From assembly GCF_009914755.1 (NCBI RefSeq), contig NC_060946.1: DNA of 64,000 nucleotides; one strand, 5' to 3'. Positions 41,501-52,145 of this stretch are shown in pieces (position 1 is the first letter of the stretch; each line of letters opens with the position of its first letter). A model generated the notes under the pieces. It saw nothing but the letters and a program-made list of their open reading frames with translations. It was not told the DNA's origin and searched no databases. The position numbers were made by a program, and so were the translations under genes. The stretch is from the human T2T-CHM13v2.0 reference genome, Homo sapiens.

Positions 41501-43429
41501 CTCTATGCTCTGCCTACAGGGGACATTGTGACATATCTCTGCACTGATCAGCCATGTGATGCAACTCTTCTCTATGCCCTGCCTACTGGGGGCATTGTGA
41601 CATATCTCTGCAAGGATCACGCAGGTGATGTAACTCTTTTCTAGTCTCTGCCTACAGAGGGCGTTGTGACATCACTCTGCACGGATCACCCGGGTTATGT
41701 AACTCTTATCTATGCTCTACCTATGGGGGCATTGTGACTTATCTCTGCACTGATCACCCAGGAAATGTGACTCTTGTCTAAGCTCTGCCTAGAAGGACAC
41801 TGGGACATATCTCTGCACTGATCACTGAGGTGATTTAAAACTTCTCTCGGCTTTGCCTACAGTGGGATTTATGACATATCTCTGCACTGATCACCCAGGT
41901 GATGTAACTCTTATCTACGCTCTGCTTACAGGGGATATTGTGAGATATCTCTGCACTGATCACCCAGGTGATGTAACTCTTGTCTAGGCTCTGCCTACAG
42001 GGTCATTTTAACATATCACTGCACTGATCACCGAGATGATGTAACTCTTGTATAGGCTTCGCCGACAGGGGACGTTCAGATATATGTCTGCACTGATCAC
42101 CGAGGTGATGCATCTCTTGTCTGGGATCTGCTTAAATGGGGCACTGGGACATATCTCTGCCCTGATCACCCAGGTGATGTAACTCTTGTCTGGGCTCTGC
42201 CTACTGGAGACATTGTGACATATCTCCACACTGATCACCCAGGTGAGGTCACTTTTGTCAAGGATATGGCTACAGGGACATTGTGATATATCACTGCACT
42301 GATCCCACAGCTGATTTAACCCTTGTCTAGGCTCTAGCTACAGGGGGTTTGTGACACATCTCTGCACTGATCACCCAGGTGATGTAACCCTTGTCTAGGC
42401 TCTGCCAAAATGGGCCATTGTGACGTAACTCTGCACTGATCACCCAGGTGATGGGACACTTGTCTAGGCTCTGCCTACAGGATCATTGTGACATATCTCT
42501 GCACTCATCACCCAGGTGATGGACTCTTCTCTTAGATCTGCCTACATGGTCATTGTGACACATCTCTAAACTGATCAACCAAGTGATGAAACTCTTGTCT
42601 AGGCTCTGCCTACAGGGGCTTTGTGACACATCTCTGCACTGATCACCCTGGGGAGGGAACTCTTGTCTACACTCTGCCTACAGGAGTCTTTATGACTTAT
42701 ACCTGCACTGATAACCTAGGTGATGTAACACTTGTCTAGGCTCTGCCTACACAGGAATTCTCACGTATCTCTGCACTGATCACCTGGGTGATGTAACTCC
42801 TGTCTAGGATCAGCCTACAGGAGCGTTTTGACATGTCTCTGCACTGATGACCCAGGTGATGTAACACTTGTCTAAGCTGTTCCTATAGAGGCATTGTGAC
42901 AGATCTCTCCACTGCTCACCCAGGTGATGTAACAATTTTCTGGGCTTTGCCTACAGGGGGCTTTGTGATATATACATTTCCACTGATCAAACAGGTGATG
43001 TAACCCTTGTCAAGGTTCTGCTTACAGGGGCTTTGTGACATTTCTCTGCACTGATCACCCCAGGTAGGAAACACTTGTCTACACTCTGCCTACAGGAGGC
43101 TTTACAACTTATCCCTGCACTGATCACTTGGTGATGTAACACTTGTCTGGGATCTGTCTACATGGGAATTTTCACAGATCTCTGCACTGATCACCTAAGT
43201 TATGTAACCCTTGTCTAGGTTCAGCCTACTGGGGATTTCTGACATACCTATGCACTGATCACCGAGGTGATGTAAATCATTTCCAGGCTTTTTGTACAGC
43301 GGACATTGTGATATATATCTTCACTGATCACCCAAATGATGCAAATCTTCTCTACGCTCCGCAGGGAGGGGGCATTGTGACATATTTCTGAACTGATCGT
43401 CAAGGAGATGTAAGTATTCTCCAGGCTTT
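35543..43429 (-). repeat. Beta satellite array 5 (longest, ~7.9 kb)
   Basis: 68-bp monomers. Confidence 0.96.
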
Positions 43430-43899
43430 GACTAAAGAGCTTCGCAAGGTGTTGGGAGAGCCTCAGCTAGAATTTCATGGATGGACAAGGGCACAGAGAG
43501 GCCAGTAGGCTCCCTTGCACGACAGCCGGGGTGCGCAATGCACGCAGATCTAGCCAGGAGGCCGGCAAAGAGAGCTAGAGGTCTGTGTTCCGCCGCCAGG
43601 CGCTCCATGGTGGCAGCTGGGAGGCTGCAGGGGCACCGGCGGGCCGTCGATGGTGGCACAGAGGCGCAGAGGAGGCGAGCCGCCAGAGGGTGGTCAGGCC
43701 TGGACGCTGTGCAGGCCCAGTGTTTTGCGGGATGGGGGTCTCCACCCAGCCCAGGGGAGGATGCATTTTCTGGTGGTTGGAGGTGGGGGTGGCGTGGGGG
43801 TGGTCAGGCGGGGGTGGGGTTGTGGAAAGACATGAGAGCTCTGCCCGGGCTACTCCCACAGCCCAGGCGGCTGACCGCAAACCCGCGGGTGTGCAGTAG
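43430..43899 (-). repeat. Truncated cassette: pLAM-like segment plus intron-2-like D4Z4 sequence, cut at the inversion junction
   Basis: Matches 4920-5390 of cassette B, then switches to plus-strand beta satellite. Confidence 0.9.
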
Positions 43900-45267
43900 C
43901 GAGATCTCTCACAATTCCCCTTTAGGCAGAGCTTATACAACAGTTACATCACCTGGGTGATCAGTGCAGAGATATGTCACAGTGCCCCCATAGACAGATC
44001 CAAGATAAGAGTCCGTCACCTGGGTGATCAGTGCAGAAATAGATCACAATGCCCCCTTAGGCAGAGCCTAGACAAAATCCCCATCACGTGGATGATCAGT
44101 GCAAAGTTATGTCACAAAGACCCTTTAGGCAGATCCTAGACAAGATTTATATCACTTGGATGATCAGTGCAGAGATATGTCACAATGTCACTGTAGGCAG
44201 AGCCTAGACAAGAGTTACATGACCTAGGTGATCAGTGCAGAGATACATCAAAATGTCCCTGGAGCAAGAGCCTTGACAAGTGGTACATCACCTGGGTGAT
44301 CATTGCAGGGATATGTCACAAAGCACCCTATAGGCAGATCCTAGAGAAGAGTTATATCACCTGGGTGATCAGTGCAGAGATATGTCACAAGAACCCTGTA
44401 GGTAGAGCCTAGACAAGAGTTATATCACCTGGGTGATCAGTGCAGTGATATGTCACAATGCCGTGTAGCCAGAGCGTAGACTAAATTTACAGCACATGGG
44501 AGATCAGTGCAGAGATATGTCACAATGTCCCCAGTAGGCAGAGACCACGCAAGAGTTGAATCACCTCCGGATCAGTGCAGAGATACTTCTCAATGCCCCT
44601 GTGGGCACCCCCAAGACAAGAGTTACATCACATCAGTTAACAGTGCAGAGATATGTCACAATGGCCCCATAGGCAAATGCAAGAGGAGAGTCCGTCACCT
44701 GGGTGATCAGTGCAGAAATATGTGACAATAACCCAAGTAGACGGAGCCTAGAGAAGAGTCCCATCACCTGGGTGATCCGTGCAGAGATATTTCACAATGC
44801 CCCTGCAGGCAGAGGGTATGCAAGAGTTACATCACCTAGATGATCAGTGCAGAGATATGTCACAAGGCCGCTATATGCAGAGCCTGGACAAGAGTTACAT
44901 CACCTCGGTGATCAATGCAGTGATATGTCACTATGCCCCGTAGGCAGAGCCTAGTCACGCGTTACATCACCTGGGTTAGCAGTGCAGAGATATGTCACAA
45001 AGCCCCCATACACAGAGCCTAGACAAGAGTCCCATCACCTGGGTGATCAGTGCAGAAATATGTCACAATGTCCCCATAGGCAGATCCAACACAAGTGTTA
45101 CATCACCTGGGTGATCAGTATAGAGATATGTCACAATGCCCCCATAGGCAGAGCCTAGACAAAAGTCCCATCACCTGGGTGGTCAGTGCAGAGATATGTC
45201 ACAAAGCCACTGTAGGCAGAGCTTAGACAAGTGTTACATCACTTTTTTGATTAGTTTAGAGATGTGT
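43900..45267 (+). repeat. Beta satellite array 6 (inverted relative to arrays 1-5)
   Basis: GTTACATCACCTGGGTGATCAGTGCAGAGATATGTCAC monomers on +. Confidence 0.96.
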
Positions 45268-45885
45268 CCTGCTGACTGTTTGCTCCCAGAGCTCTGTGGG
45301 CAGCCGGAAACATGCAGGGAATGGTGGAAGACCAGCATGGTGCCTTCGCTCTCCTTCCCAGTTTCCAAACCGGCCACACTGCAGACTCCCCATCTTGCCG
45401 CACACGGGAATCCATCATCAGGCCATCAGGCCAGGGAGACATCTTCTCTCTGGGGTATTGCTCTGGTATCCTACATGGAAATGAAGGAGAGCCACACGCC
45501 TGCGTGTGTGAGACTGTCCAGGCAATGGCGACACCCACAGTCACTGCCTCCTTCACGGAGAGAGGGCCTGGAACACTCCAGACTCCCACGGAGGTTCAGT
45601 TCCACACTCCCCTGCACCCTCCCAGGCCGGTTTCTCCCTGCTGAAGACGCGTGGGAGCCCAGAGAGCCTCTTCCCGTTCCCACGGTATGCCTGGAGAGGT
45701 CCGGAGAGCCAGCCCCGAAACGCGCCCACCTCACCCCTTCCCCCTCGTCCACTTCCTCTTCGTCTCTCCGGCCCCACCAGCACTATCACCACGTCCTCCC
45801 CCCCGACACCAACACCCCCCCCGGCCGCAGGCCTCGACGCCCTGGGATGCTTCCAGGGTGGGGCGGGCTGTCCCAGGGCTCACCA

Positions 45886-47332
<1,447 letters not shown>

Positions 47333-47340
47333 GACACTAG

Positions 47341-48075
47341 GTTGGGACGGGGTCGGGTCGGGGCAGGGCGGTGTCCTCTCTTTCGTGGGTAACACCTGAA
47401 TGGCTATGGAGGGGCTTGTCTTCCCCCAGCCCCCTCCACTGGGCTGACCAGCCTAGGATTCCTGCCTTCTAGGTCTAGGCCCGGTGAGAGGCTCCACACA
47501 GCAGAGAACAGTCATTCTTTCCTGGGCATCCCGGGGATCCCAGATCTGGCCCAGGTACCAGCAGGTGGGCCACCTACTGCCCACGCGCGGGTTTGCGGGA
47601 AGCCCCCTGGGCTGTGGGAGCAGCCAGGGTAGAGCTCTCATGCCTCTCCACTACCCCACCCCCACCTGACCACCCCTCCCCAACCCCACGCCCCCCAACC
47701 GGAGAAAGCATCCTCCCCTGGGCTGGGTGGAGACCCCCATCCCACGAAACACCAGGCCTGCATAGCATCCAGTCCTGACACCACTCTGGTGACTCGCCTC
47801 CTCTGCGCCTCTGCGCCACCATCGCCGGCCCGCCCGTGCCCCTGCAGCCTCTCAGCTGCAACCATGGAGGGCCTGGTGGTGGAACGCAGACCTCTAGCTC
47901 TCTTTGCCGGCCTCCTGGCTAGAACTACGCTCATTGCACACCCCGGCTGACGTGCAAGGGAGCCTGCTGGCCTCTCTGTTTCCTTGTCCCTCCGTGAAAT
48001 TCCGGCTGAGGCTCTCCCAACACCTTCCTACACTCTTTAGACAAAGCCTGGAGAATAGTTACATTTCCTGGATGA
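47341..48075 (+). other. DUX4-like 3' UTR splice architecture: intron 1 47341-47472, exon 2 47473-47564, intron 2 47565-47922, exon 3 (pLAM-like) from 47923
   Basis: GT at 47341, CTTCTAG ending 47472, CAG|GTGGG at 47565, CCTGGCTAG ending 47922; boundaries inferred from recalled DUX4 gene structure. Confidence 0.6.
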
Positions 48076-48077
48076 AA

Positions 48078-48109
48078 TGTATAAATAAAGCAATAGCACC
48101 TGGAATAAA
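48078..48109 (+). terminator. Candidate polyadenylation signal: TGTA plus two AATAAA
   Basis: TGTA 48078-48081; AATAAA 48084-48089 and 48104-48109, sense to copy G; function untested. Confidence 0.5.
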
Positions 48110-48123
48110 GCGATAGCACCTGG

Positions 48124-49370
48124 GAGATCAGTGCAGAGATATGTCACAATGTCCCCAGTGGGCAGAGACCAGGCAAGAGTTGGATCACCTCGGGATCAGT
48201 GCAGAGATATGCCTCAATCCCCCTGTGGGCACAGCCTAGACAAGAGTTACATCACCTCGGTTAACAGTGCAGATATATGTCAAAATGCCCCTGTAGGCAG
48301 AGCCTACAAAAGTGTTACATCACTTAAGTGATCAGTGTATAGATATGTCACAATACCCCCTGTGACCAGAGCCTAGACAAGAGTTACATCACGTAGGTGA
48401 TCAGTGCAGAGATATGTGACAAGGCCCCTTTAAGCAGAGCCTAGAAAATAGTTACATCACCTGAGTGATGAATGCAGAAATCTGTCACAATGCCCCTTTA
48501 GGCAGAGCTTAGACCAGAGTTGCAACACCTGGGTGACCATTGCAGAGAGATGTCACAATGCCCCCACAGGCAAATCCAAGACAAGAGTCCGTCTGCTGGG
48601 TGATCAGTTCAGAAATTTGTGAGAATGCCCCCAGTATTCAGAGCCTAGAGAAGAGTCCCTTCACCTGGGTCATCAGTGCAGAGATATTTCACGATGTCCC
48701 TGCAGGCAGAGTGTAAGCAAGAGTTACATCACCTAGATGATCAGTGCAGAGATATGTCACAAGGACCCCTATAGTCAGAGCCTGGACAAGAGTTACACCA
48801 CCTGGGTGATCAGTGCAGAGATATGTCACAATGCCACCATAGGCAGAGCCTAGACAATAGTTACATGACCTAGGTGATCAGTGCAGAGATACATCGCAAT
48901 GCCCCTGTAGGCAGAGCCTTGACAATTGGTATATCACCTGGGTGATCATTGCAGGGATATGTCACAAAGCACCCTGTAGTCAGATTCTAGAGAAGAGTTA
49001 TATCACCTCGGTGATCAATGCAGTGATATGTCACTATGCCCCGTAGGCAGAGCCTAGTCAAGCATTACATCACCTGGGTGATCAGTGCAGAGATATGTCA
49101 CAATGCCCCCATACACAGAGCCTAGACAACAGTCCCATCACCTGGGTGATCAGTGAAGAAATATGTCACAATGCCCCCATAGGCAGATCCAACACAAGAA
49201 TTACATCACCTGGGTGATCAGTGTAGAGATATGTCACAATGCCCTCATAGGCAGAGCCTAGAAAAAATTCCCACCACCTGGGTGATCAGTGCAGAGATAT
49301 GTCACAAAGCCCCTGTAGGCAGAGCCTAGACAAGAGTTACATCACTTTGTTGATCAGTTCAGAGATGTGT
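48124..49370 (+). repeat. Beta satellite array 7 (short, proximal part deleted)
   Basis: 68-bp monomers; lacks the pLAM-adjacent monomer series found in other arrays. Confidence 0.95.

Positions 49371-52145
<2,775 letters not shown>

What the first reader, a model, noticed from the sequence alone, without database searches (positions are those of the whole stretch)
48071..48123. New double AATAAA at the pLAM/exon-3 poly(A) position of one DUX4L cassette
Seen: the other cassettes continue ...CCTGGATGATC(A/G)(G/C)TT(C/T)AGAA(A/G)TATGTCACAATG. This one reads CCTGGATGA-AATGTATA-[AATAAAGCAATAGCACCTGG][AATAAAGCGATAGCACCTGG]-GAGATCAG, a 20-bp tandem duplication (one mismatch) giving two canonical hexamers preceded by TGTA. 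It then resumes in a beta-satellite monomer that normally lies far from pLAM (compare ~44491-44550), so the junction is a deletion with filler. Known: the 4qA ATTAAA in pLAM stabilises DUX4 mRNA in FSHD, and UGUA binds CFIm. Inference: an independent gain of a poly(A) signal within ~10 nt of the 4qA-equivalent site. Caveat: the deletion removed the U-rich monomer that normally follows, so a downstream element may be weak.
Basis: partly seen in the sequence, partly recalled or inferred. Interest (0 to 1): 0.9.

Follow-up and report, generated by a model that had tools for sequence, protein, structure and literature searches.

The report
Borrowed AATAAA pair in DUX4 pseudogene
One decayed DUX4-like repeat on the short arm of chromosome 22 has two textbook poly(A) hexamers where the disease-permissive 4qA copy has its weak one, but they are ordinary beta-satellite sequence moved there by a deletion, and the gene beside them is broken and probably silent.

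Summary
Window 48084-48103 and 48104-48123 are a 20-bp tandem duplication with one mismatch, each copy starting with AATAAA. They lie 8 nt after the conserved exon-3/pLAM motif of one 5'-truncated D4Z4-pLAM cassette.

In CHM13 the junction is unique. Of 206 exact pLAM anchors, only 2 have AATAAA or ATTAAA within 60 nt: 4qA and this copy.

The "filler" reading is mostly wrong. The 20-mer is native beta-satellite: the same AATAAAGCAATAG|CACCTGG closes ordinary 68-bp monomers on chr1, 13, 14, 15, 21 and elsewhere on chr22. A deletion of about 1-4 kb placed it beside exon 3, and only 8 nt (AATGTATA) are unexplained.

Function is unproven and unlikely:
- The ORF has a stop at codon 145.
- The downstream U/GU content is low.
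- The 4qA-type downstream satellite is gone.
- CpGs are depleted.
- This class of repeat is reported as 81-94% methylated, even in FSHD2 (PMC10620044).

The cassette is already catalogued, and poly(A)-bearing chr22 D4Z4-like loci are in print (PMC12963445). Modest interest.

The parts
45265..48075 (+). 5'-truncated divergent D4Z4-pLAM cassette (a DUX4L pseudogene copy of the LSAU-BSAT composite)
   Evidence: It is 85.6% identical over 3194 alignment columns to the last 4q35 D4Z4 unit plus pLAM (L002 2744-5931). It is listed as Chr22 6059265-6062305 (+) TRUNCATED_5' in Supplemental Table S4 of PMC10620044. Its length there is 3040 bp against about 2990 bp for its neighbours.
46064..47332 (+). 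DUX4-like ORF, colinear with the 424-aa DUX4 in one frame but with a single in-frame stop (TGA at 46496-46498, codon 145; chr4 has CGA there)
   Evidence: tblastn aligns DUX4 residues 1-424 in one frame at 81.6%. Translation shows one internal stop and one search shows the codon. The 144-aa product has two Pfam Homeodomain stretches, the second covering profile positions 1-50 of 57. The other three colinear copies in the window have 2, 2 (plus a frame-shifted stretch) and 7 internal stops.
47341..47472 (+). Homologue of DUX4 intron 1, GT...AG kept
   Evidence: Alignment A2 with chr4 and coordinates. The exon/intron boundaries of DUX4 are recalled and were not verified by any search.
47473..47564 (+). 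Homologue of DUX4 exon 2, containing the KpnI site GGTACC
   Evidence: Boundaries are recalled.
47565..47922 (+). Homologue of DUX4 intron 2, GT...AG kept
   Evidence: Boundaries are recalled.
47923..48075 (+). Homologue of DUX4 exon 3 (pLAM) up to the breakpoint after CCTGGATGA
   Evidence: It is colinear with chr4 and with the other cassettes up to 48075 and then diverges.
48076..48083 (+). 8-nt insertion AATGTATA of unknown origin, containing the only nearby UGUA (48078-48081)
   Evidence: It is absent from all paralogues of either flank. A 21-mer containing it gave 52 genome matches at up to 2 mismatches, against 190 for the reversed control, which is chance level.
48084..48103 (+). Copy 1 of the 20-bp tandem duplication (AATAAA at 48084-48089). 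It is identical to the satellite variant found at other loci.
48104..48123 (+). Copy 2 of the duplication (AATAAA at 48104-48109), contiguous with the satellite array. It differs from the family by A>G at 48112.
   Evidence: All 6 related satellite loci read A at that position.
48117..49372 (+). Beta-satellite array (68-bp monomers) of the 'distal' type that normally lies 1-6 kb from pLAM
   Evidence: Tandem Repeats Finder gives period 68 and 18.4 copies. It is 93.0% identical over 1305 bp to chr13/14/15 paralogues and 88-90.5% identical to six in-window paralogues.

Best explanation
This is a private structural variant inside one decayed D4Z4-pLAM (DUX4L) pseudogene copy of the chr22p LSAU-beta-satellite composite.

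How it arose. Steps 1-3 are shown by comparison with paralogues; the repair mechanism is inferred.
1. A subfamily of beta-satellite monomers ends in AATAAAGCAATAG before the next monomer's CACCTGGGAG. This is a variant of the common ACTAAAGTTACAG.
2. Such a monomer lay about 1.1 kb (chr13/14/15 arrangement) to a few kb downstream of this cassette.
3. A deletion joined exon 3, right after CCTGGATGA, to that monomer end, leaving 8 inserted bases.
4. The 20 bp spanning the monomer boundary were duplicated in tandem, by slippage or templated end-joining. One copy later changed A>G.

What results. The sequence has the core parts of a poly(A) site: two AAUAAA hexamers 20 nt apart, one UGUA upstream, and CA dinucleotides 20-26 nt downstream. 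It lacks a U/GU-rich downstream element and the 4qA-type downstream satellite.

Likely significance (inferred). The gene in front has a premature stop after codon 144, and the repeat class is CpG-depleted and reported as heavily methylated. The site is therefore most likely a neutral, unused by-product of satellite turnover. If it were ever transcribed, it would at most end an mRNA for a truncated, DUX4-s-like protein with two homeodomains.
For: Origin from satellite DNA:
- The 20-mer occurs exactly at chr1:128480611, chr13:9744143, chr14:3219174, chr15:5099577, chr21:6122306 and chr22:6122154 (14 hits at up to 1 mismatch, including our 2 and one unrelated chr9 hit).
- In all 6 satellite loci it closes a full-length 68-bp monomer.
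- The monomer-boundary pattern has 1715 genome hits, mostly ACTAAAGTTACAG (only the first 100 were listed).

Deletion:
- The distal flank is 93.0% identical to chr13/14/15 loci, where a normal pLAM end lies 1137 bp upstream of the AATAAA monomer end.
- The first 272 nt after the junction are 72-78% identical to pLAM-proximal satellite and 91-94.5% identical to distal satellite.

Uniqueness:
- The 42-mer has 1 hit in the genome and the 28-mer has 1 hit at up to 3 mismatches.
- 2 of 206 anchors have AWTAAA within 60 nt.

Against function:
- One stop at codon 145.
- T fraction at +10..+50 is 0.15-0.22 here against 0.39 in 4qA, and GU/U trinucleotide counts are 1-3 against 11.
- CpG observed/expected is 0.49 against 0.73 for the chr4 unit.
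- PMC10620044 section 8 reports divergent D4Z4 copies at median 81-94% methylation in FSHD1, FSHD2 and control blood, with no read below 50%.
- RefSeq annotates no gene in the window (hub note in the finding).
Against: - Canonical AAUAAA is the strongest single determinant of poly(A) site use, and here there are two, with a UGUA suitably placed for the second. A weak downstream element does not exclude use. No reporter or RNA data were available, so 'unused' is an inference.
- The cassette has the best-preserved ORF of the 4 colinear copies in the window, with conserved GT/AG at both 3'UTR introns.
- The methylation data are from blood and for the repeat class, not for this copy or for germline or embryo.
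- My downstream-element measure is crude.
- The 8-nt insertion and the order of deletion and duplication are not explained.
Confidence: 0.7

Rival explanations
1. This is a working poly(A) site. When the chr22p array is transcribed (early embryo, testis, tumours, demethylated or SMCHD1/DNMT3B-deficient cells), transcripts from this cassette are spliced like DUX4, cleaved 10-30 nt after one of the two AAUAAA hexamers and stabilised. They would give a DUX4-s-like protein of 144 aa, or 153 aa from the in-frame ATG at 46037, or a stable non-coding RNA.
For: - Two canonical hexamers, a UGUA at 48078, and CA at +20/21 and +25/26 after hexamer 2.
- GT/AG kept at both introns.
- The promoter region is about 86% identical to chr4 and reads TATAA in place of TACAA.
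- It is the only non-4q copy of 206 anchors with such a hexamer.
- PMC12963445 argues that poly(A)-competent architectures exist outside 4q and describes a chr22 locus with a DUX4-s-like ORF and a poly(A) signal.
- PMC7564753 (passage) notes that testis DUX4 transcripts use alternative poly(A) sites.
Against: - No transcript evidence was seen.
- Low U/GU content downstream.
- The 4qA downstream satellite, reported as critical, is deleted.
- An 8-bp gap removes the GC-rich stretch next to the TATAA, and TATAA is family-wide (6 of 7 in the window).
- The class is hypermethylated even in FSHD2.
- A stop codon far upstream of two introns would, by established knowledge of nonsense-mediated decay, make the mRNA unstable.
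- PMC12963445 Focus Box 1 says that no non-4q/10q locus has been shown to give stable polyadenylated DUX4-FL.
Confidence: 0.15
2. This is an assembly artefact, or a mutation private to the CHM13 cell line, and not a germline human allele.
For: - The junction occurs once in the assembly.
- It lies in an acrocentric satellite region that is hard to assemble.
- No reads or other human assemblies could be searched with these tools.
Against: - Both flanks are 7-15% diverged from every paralogue examined, so reads should place uniquely.
- The two 20-mers differ at one base, and the structure (deletion, 8-nt insertion, duplication) is not the usual kind of consensus error.
- An independent LASTZ survey of the same assembly gives this copy an extra ~50 bp, but that is the same assembly and so is not independent support.
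Confidence: 0.05
3. One reading: the hexamers were created de novo by untemplated filler at a deletion junction, as an independent gain of a signal.
For: The first 8 nt (AATGTATA) have no identified template.
Against: The hexamer-bearing 13-mer plus the next 7 nt are found exactly at 6 other beta-satellite loci, in the same monomer register. The loci closest to the distal flank (93%) carry it.
Confidence: 0.03

Closest known systems
4qA pLAM poly(A) signal of DUX4 (ATTAAA), the FSHD-permissive haplotype
   Same: Both lie in the same exon-3 context after the same CCTGGATGA motif. The hexamer sits 8 and 28 nt after it here, against 15 nt in 4qA. These are the only two AWTAAA hexamers within 60 nt of 206 exact anchors in CHM13.
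   Different: - Here the hexamer is canonical AATAAA, present twice, and it comes from a relocated satellite monomer, not from a base change in pLAM.
- The downstream 4qA satellite, with its U/GU-rich stretch, is absent.
- The ORF in front is broken.
- The chromatin class is reported as hypermethylated.
- The role of ATTAAA in FSHD is taken from passages of PMC12963445; the original paper is recalled.
5'-truncated divergent D4Z4-pLAM repeats of the LSAU-BSAT composite (319 copies in CHM13; PMC10620044; LSAU-BETA composite of 10.1101/2021.07.12.451456)
   Same: This cassette is one of them by coordinates. It starts at the same truncation point (query 955, equal to L002 ~2740), is about 86% identical to 4q, and is flanked by beta-satellite.
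   Different: About 50 bp longer than its neighbours because of the junction described here. The text and tables I could read do not mention the hexamers.
Non-4q D4Z4-like loci carrying a poly(A) signal (PMC12963445, Table 1 and 'Chromosome 22 locus 1')
   Same: The paper reports chr22 p11/p13 units with a PolyA signal. One chr22 locus encodes a truncated protein with two homeodomains, DUX4-s-like, 85.3% identical to DUX4. Our product is 144 aa with 122 identities (84.7% of 144; 85.3% of 143).
   Different: No coordinates or sequences are in the readable text or the xlsx, and Supplementary Fig. 1 is a PDF that could not be read. Identity of the loci is therefore possible but unproven. The paper scored the AUUAAA signal and does not describe a double AATAAA in what I read.
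DUX4-s (short DUX4 isoform lacking the C-terminal activation domain)
   Same: The predicted product keeps homeodomain 1 and most of homeodomain 2 and lacks the whole C-terminal part.
   Different: It is made by a nonsense codon, not by splicing. It ends inside helix 3 of homeodomain 2 (Pfam profile 1-50 of 57) and is 15% diverged. What is known of DUX4-s itself is recalled.
Deletion junctions with short insertions and local duplications (templated end-joining or replication slippage)
   Same: Breakpoint with 8 inserted bases and a 20-bp tandem copy of the adjoining flank.
   Different: The mechanism is an inference from the shape of the junction. Nothing here tests which pathway acted.

Membership tests
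Mammalian canonical poly(A) site | AAUAAA or AUUAAA hexamer | tested here: met
   AATAAA at 48084-48089 and 48104-48109.
Mammalian canonical poly(A) site | Upstream UGUA (CFIm) or U-rich element | tested here: inconclusive
   There is a single UGUA at 48078-48081, 2 nt before hexamer 1 and 22 nt before hexamer 2. The expected spacing is recalled knowledge.
Mammalian canonical poly(A) site | U- or GU-rich downstream element within about 40 nt of the cleavage site | tested here: not met
   T fraction at +10..+50 is 0.15 (hexamer 1) and 0.22 (hexamer 2) against 0.39 for 4qA. GU/U trinucleotide counts are 1 and 3 against 11. This is a crude composition measure, not a trained predictor.
Mammalian canonical poly(A) site | Observed cleavage and untemplated A tail | not testable with these tools
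   No RNA data are available here, and RefSeq annotates no gene in the window (hub note).
FSHD-permissive 4qA-type DUX4 terminal unit | Intact full-length DUX4 ORF | tested here: not met
   TGA at codon 145.
FSHD-permissive 4qA-type DUX4 terminal unit | pLAM with exons 2 and 3 and a poly(A) hexamer after exon 3 | tested here: met
   It is colinear with chr4 through exon 3 with GT/AG kept (boundaries recalled). The hexamers follow.
FSHD-permissive 4qA-type DUX4 terminal unit | 4qA-type beta-satellite directly downstream (reported auxiliary element) | tested here: not met
   72.3% identity to the 4qA downstream 272 nt, which is background monomer similarity. The requirement is quoted in PMC5983732.
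FSHD-permissive 4qA-type DUX4 terminal unit | Relaxed, hypomethylated chromatin in the relevant state | not testable with these tools
   Literature exists for the class only: 81-94% methylated. CpG observed/expected is 0.49 here against 0.73 on chr4.
5'-truncated divergent D4Z4-pLAM repeat of the LSAU-BSAT composite | About 3.1 kb, lacking the first ~0.9 kb from the KpnI site, ending in pLAM, ~90% identical to 4q, embedded in beta-satellite | tested here: met
   It is listed by coordinates in Table S4 of PMC10620044.
Beta-satellite (68-bp Sau3A family) monomer variant ending in AATAAAGCAATAG | The same 13-mer in the same register before CACCTGGGAG in full-length monomers elsewhere | tested here: met
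   6 satellite loci. In this window the rest of that monomer is deleted.

The most novel reading that the evidence does not exclude
This chr22p cassette is the one non-4q DUX4-like copy in the reference genome that can make a stable, spliced, polyadenylated mRNA. In globally demethylated states (cleavage embryo, germline, tumours, DNMT3B/SMCHD1 deficiency) it would yield a two-homeodomain protein without an activation domain. That product would compete with DUX4 at its sites, or at least contaminate poly(A)+ 'DUX4' signals. The allele may also be polymorphic among people, since acrocentric short arms exchange sequence.
Probability: 0.07. Interest if true: 0.6.

Novelty: new member of a known kind. 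Interest (0 to 1): 0.3.

Why it matters
FSHD genetics turns on one weak poly(A) hexamer behind the last D4Z4 unit. It is therefore worth knowing that exactly one other of 206 exact-anchor copies in a complete genome has a stronger-looking hexamer in the same place.

The practical value is modest:
- The junction gives a unique k-mer for locus-resolved mapping.
- It is a possible source of off-target poly(A)+ or 3'-RACE signal.
- It is a natural construct for asking how much the hexamer matters against the downstream satellite.

It also shows how beta-satellite variants one base away from AATAAA can supply ready-made signals through deletion. The gene is truncated and the repeat class is reported as silent, so a role in disease or development is unlikely.

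Tried and rejected
- Donor for the 'filler': the 21-mer gave 52 genome hits at up to 2 mismatches against 190 for the reversed control, none in satellite. No donor was found for the first 8 nt.
- A short-anchor census (TCCTGGATGA + N{0,60} + AWTAAA) gave 907 hits against 401 for the control and was uninformative. It was replaced by a 19-nt anchor.
- I tried to decide whether 'Chromosome 22 locus 1' of PMC12963445 is this cassette. The xlsx holds primers only, Supplementary Fig. 1 is a PDF that cannot be read, and the text has no coordinates.
- The exact 20-mer as a text string occurs in 0 papers of the searchable library. This does not cover figures, PDFs or subscription journals.
- I first guessed that the G/A difference between the copies was CpG decay of an original G. 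I rejected this because all 6 related loci read A.
- I first mis-added the frames and thought the ORF was frame-shifted. tblastn and translation show one frame with one stop.
- The TATAA in the promoter is not special to this copy: 6 of 7 in the window have it.
- No poly(A)-site predictor, RNA data, reads, methylation tracks or other human or primate assemblies were available.
- No structure or complex prediction was run, because none bears on the question.

Full report
**What is there**

The window (chr22:6,014,001-6,078,000 of T2T-CHM13) is an LSAU/beta-satellite composite. GC-rich D4Z4-like blocks of about 2.7-2.8 kb alternate with 68-bp beta-satellite arrays. Blocks below about 35 kb lie on the minus strand and those above about 45 kb on the plus strand.

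After CCTGGATGA come 8 bases (AATGTATA) and then two 20-bp units, AATAAAGCAATAGCACCTGG and AATAAAGCGATAGCACCTGG. These are unique in the window (2 matches, 0 expected) and are called as a period-20 tandem repeat. Of the 8 pLAM-type junctions in the window, only this one has the insertion.

**The cassette**

I fetched the 4q35 end of the same genome (L002). It carries the 4qA ATTAAA at L002:5620 and a 424-aa DUX4 ORF.

- Window 45270-48385 aligns to the last D4Z4 unit plus pLAM at 85.6%.
- The alignment is colinear through the ORF end, both 3'UTR introns (GT/AG kept), exon 2 and exon 3 up to CCTGGATGA. The exon boundaries are recalled and were not verified by a call.
- The other cassettes then continue colinear with 4qA pLAM and its first satellite monomers, reading GTCACA where 4qA has ATTAAA.
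- This copy diverges at that point.

The ORF (46064-47332) is in one frame with a single stop, TGA for CGA at codon 145. The 144-aa product has two Pfam homeodomain matches, the second cut at profile position 50 of 57. The other three colinear ORFs in the window have 2, 2 and 7 stops, and the remaining copies are frame-shifted or partial.

**Where the hexamers came from**

The sequence after the junction is not the pLAM-proximal satellite.

- The first 272 nt are 72-78% identical to pLAM-proximal satellite in 4 other cassettes and 4qA. They are 91-94.5% identical to satellite that elsewhere lies further out.
- Aligning those distal paralogues shows that they read ...GACTAAAGTTACAG|CACCTGGGAGATCAG. 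The 13 bases before CACCTGG in our unit therefore line up with the end of the preceding monomer.
- A genome-wide pattern for that monomer boundary found 1715 places. The first 100 listed were mostly ACTAAAGTTACAG, with some AATAAAGTTACAG and ATTAAAGTTACAG, and one on chr1 reading AATAAAGCAATAG, exactly our 13-mer.
- The exact 20-mer then turned up at chr1, chr13, chr14, chr15, chr21 and a second chr22 site, plus one unrelated chr9 match and 5 one-mismatch relatives.
- In all 6 satellite loci it closes an ordinary full-length monomer.
- The chr13/14/15 loci are the closest relatives of our distal flank, at 93.0% over 1305 bp. In them a normal pLAM end lies 1137 bp upstream of the AATAAA monomer end.

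So the hexamer is inherited satellite sequence. A deletion of roughly 1.1 kb, or 2-6 kb by the in-window arrangements, brought it next to exon 3, and the 20 bp were then duplicated. All 6 relatives read A where copy 2 reads G, so the G is the later change. Only AATGTATA is unexplained.

**How unusual it is**

- The 42-mer across the junction occurs once in CHM13. The 28-mer occurs once even with 3 mismatches allowed.
- With the 19-nt anchor AGTTACATNTCCTGGATGA there are 206 copies in the genome.
- Only 2 of them have AATAAA or ATTAAA within 60 nt: 4qA and this one.
- A looser census of the 4qA-type context found 348 junctions at up to 1 mismatch. Of the 100 listed, only chr4 has ATTAAA. A search for AWTAAA at the 4qA position found chr4 alone.
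- These counts miss copies whose anchor is mutated, and the tool warns that repeat counts are lower bounds.

**Does it work as a poly(A) site?**

This was not testable here.

For:
- Two canonical hexamers 20 nt apart.
- One UGUA just upstream.
- CA dinucleotides 20-26 nt after the second hexamer.

Against:
- Downstream T content is 0.15-0.22, against 0.39 behind the 4qA signal, and there are few GU/U triplets.
- The 4qA-type downstream satellite is deleted here. [quoted passage not shown]
- The ORF is truncated far upstream of two introns, so by established knowledge of nonsense-mediated decay a spliced mRNA should be unstable.
- CpG observed/expected is 0.49, against 0.73 for the 4q unit. That is the mark of long-term germline methylation.
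- PMC10620044 (section 8 read in full) reports that full and 5'-truncated divergent D4Z4 repeats are uniformly methylated. Medians were 81-94% in one FSHD1, two FSHD2 and one control blood sample, and no read was below 50%.
- The promoter region is about 86% identical to chr4, with TATAA for TACAA and an 8-bp gap beside it. The TATAA is family-wide, in 6 of 7 copies in the window.

**What is already in print**

- The cassette is listed by coordinates as a TRUNCATED_5' D4Z4-pLAM copy, and its ORF appears as a DUX4 paralogue with 1155 of 1277 matches, in the supplement of PMC10620044.
- PMC12963445 (section 9 and Table 1 read) surveys D4Z4-like loci in T2T-CHM13. It counts poly(A) signals in chr22 arrays: 1/23, 2/28 and 1/41.
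- That paper describes a chr22 locus encoding a DUX4-s-like protein with two homeodomains, carrying a poly(A) signal, 85.3% identical to DUX4. Our product has 122 identities in 144 residues, which would be 85.3% of 143. The locus may be the same, but the figure that would show it is an unreadable PDF and the xlsx holds only primers.
- The same paper states that no non-4q/10q locus has been shown to make stable polyadenylated DUX4-FL.
- The 20-mer as a text string is in none of the searchable papers.
- The LSAU-BETA composite is described in 10.1101/2021.07.12.451456 (one passage).

**Verdict**

The mechanism is a deletion that relocated a pre-existing satellite AATAAA, followed by a 20-bp duplication; it is not a de novo signal made from filler. 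The most likely status is a neutral, unused feature of a methylated pseudogene copy (confidence about 0.7). A minority possibility is that it can end transcripts when the array is derepressed. It is a new, and possibly already noted, member of a known class. Interest is modest.

Noticed in passing
window 43216-45265: The orientation of the D4Z4-like cassettes flips here: minus-strand copies below ~35 kb and plus-strand copies from 45.3 kb. A GC-rich fragment at ~43.5-44.0 kb corresponds to the minus-strand 'TRUNCATED_5'_fragment' Chr22 6057216-6057899 of PMC10620044 Table S4. An inversion breakpoint of the composite array therefore lies just upstream of the cassette studied.
   Followed up: partly
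L006, L007, L008 (chr13:9740143-9745662, chr14:3215174-3220693, chr15:5095577-5101096): Three 5.5-kb stretches on different acrocentric chromosomes give nearly the same alignment scores to the window and read identically over the 240 nt printed. This fits recent exchange between acrocentric short arms.
   Followed up: partly
genome-wide beta-satellite monomer boundary: The common monomer end ACTAAAGTTACAG is one substitution from AATAAA or ATTAAA. Among the first 100 of 1715 listed places, 2 read AATAAAGTTACAG and 6 read ATTAAAGTTACAG. The satellite is thus a standing reservoir of poly(A)-like hexamers in the sense orientation of neighbouring DUX4-like cassettes.
   Followed up: partly
window 45959-45969: The motif TTCCTGGATGA that marks the pLAM breakpoint also occurs about 100 bp upstream of the ORF start of the same cassette. 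This reflects the known internal similarity between the D4Z4 promoter-proximal region and pLAM.
   Followed up: no
window 45916-45931 and six other sites: 6 of 7 promoter-proximal motifs in the window read TATAA where the chr4 unit has TACAA. In the one copy aligned against chr4 (45916-45931), an 8-bp gap lies beside the motif.
   Followed up: partly
G000 chr9:86207645-86207664 (L010): An exact copy of the 20-mer sits in unrelated, AT-rich unique sequence. This is a chance match and a reminder that 20-mers of this composition are not proof of homology.
   Followed up: yes
window 48084-48098: From recall only, the roughly 15 nt starting at the first hexamer resemble part of a viral late poly(A) region widely used in vectors. 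Because the same 20-mer sits in ordinary satellite monomers at 6 other loci, contamination is not a concern. The resemblance was not tested by any search.
   Followed up: no
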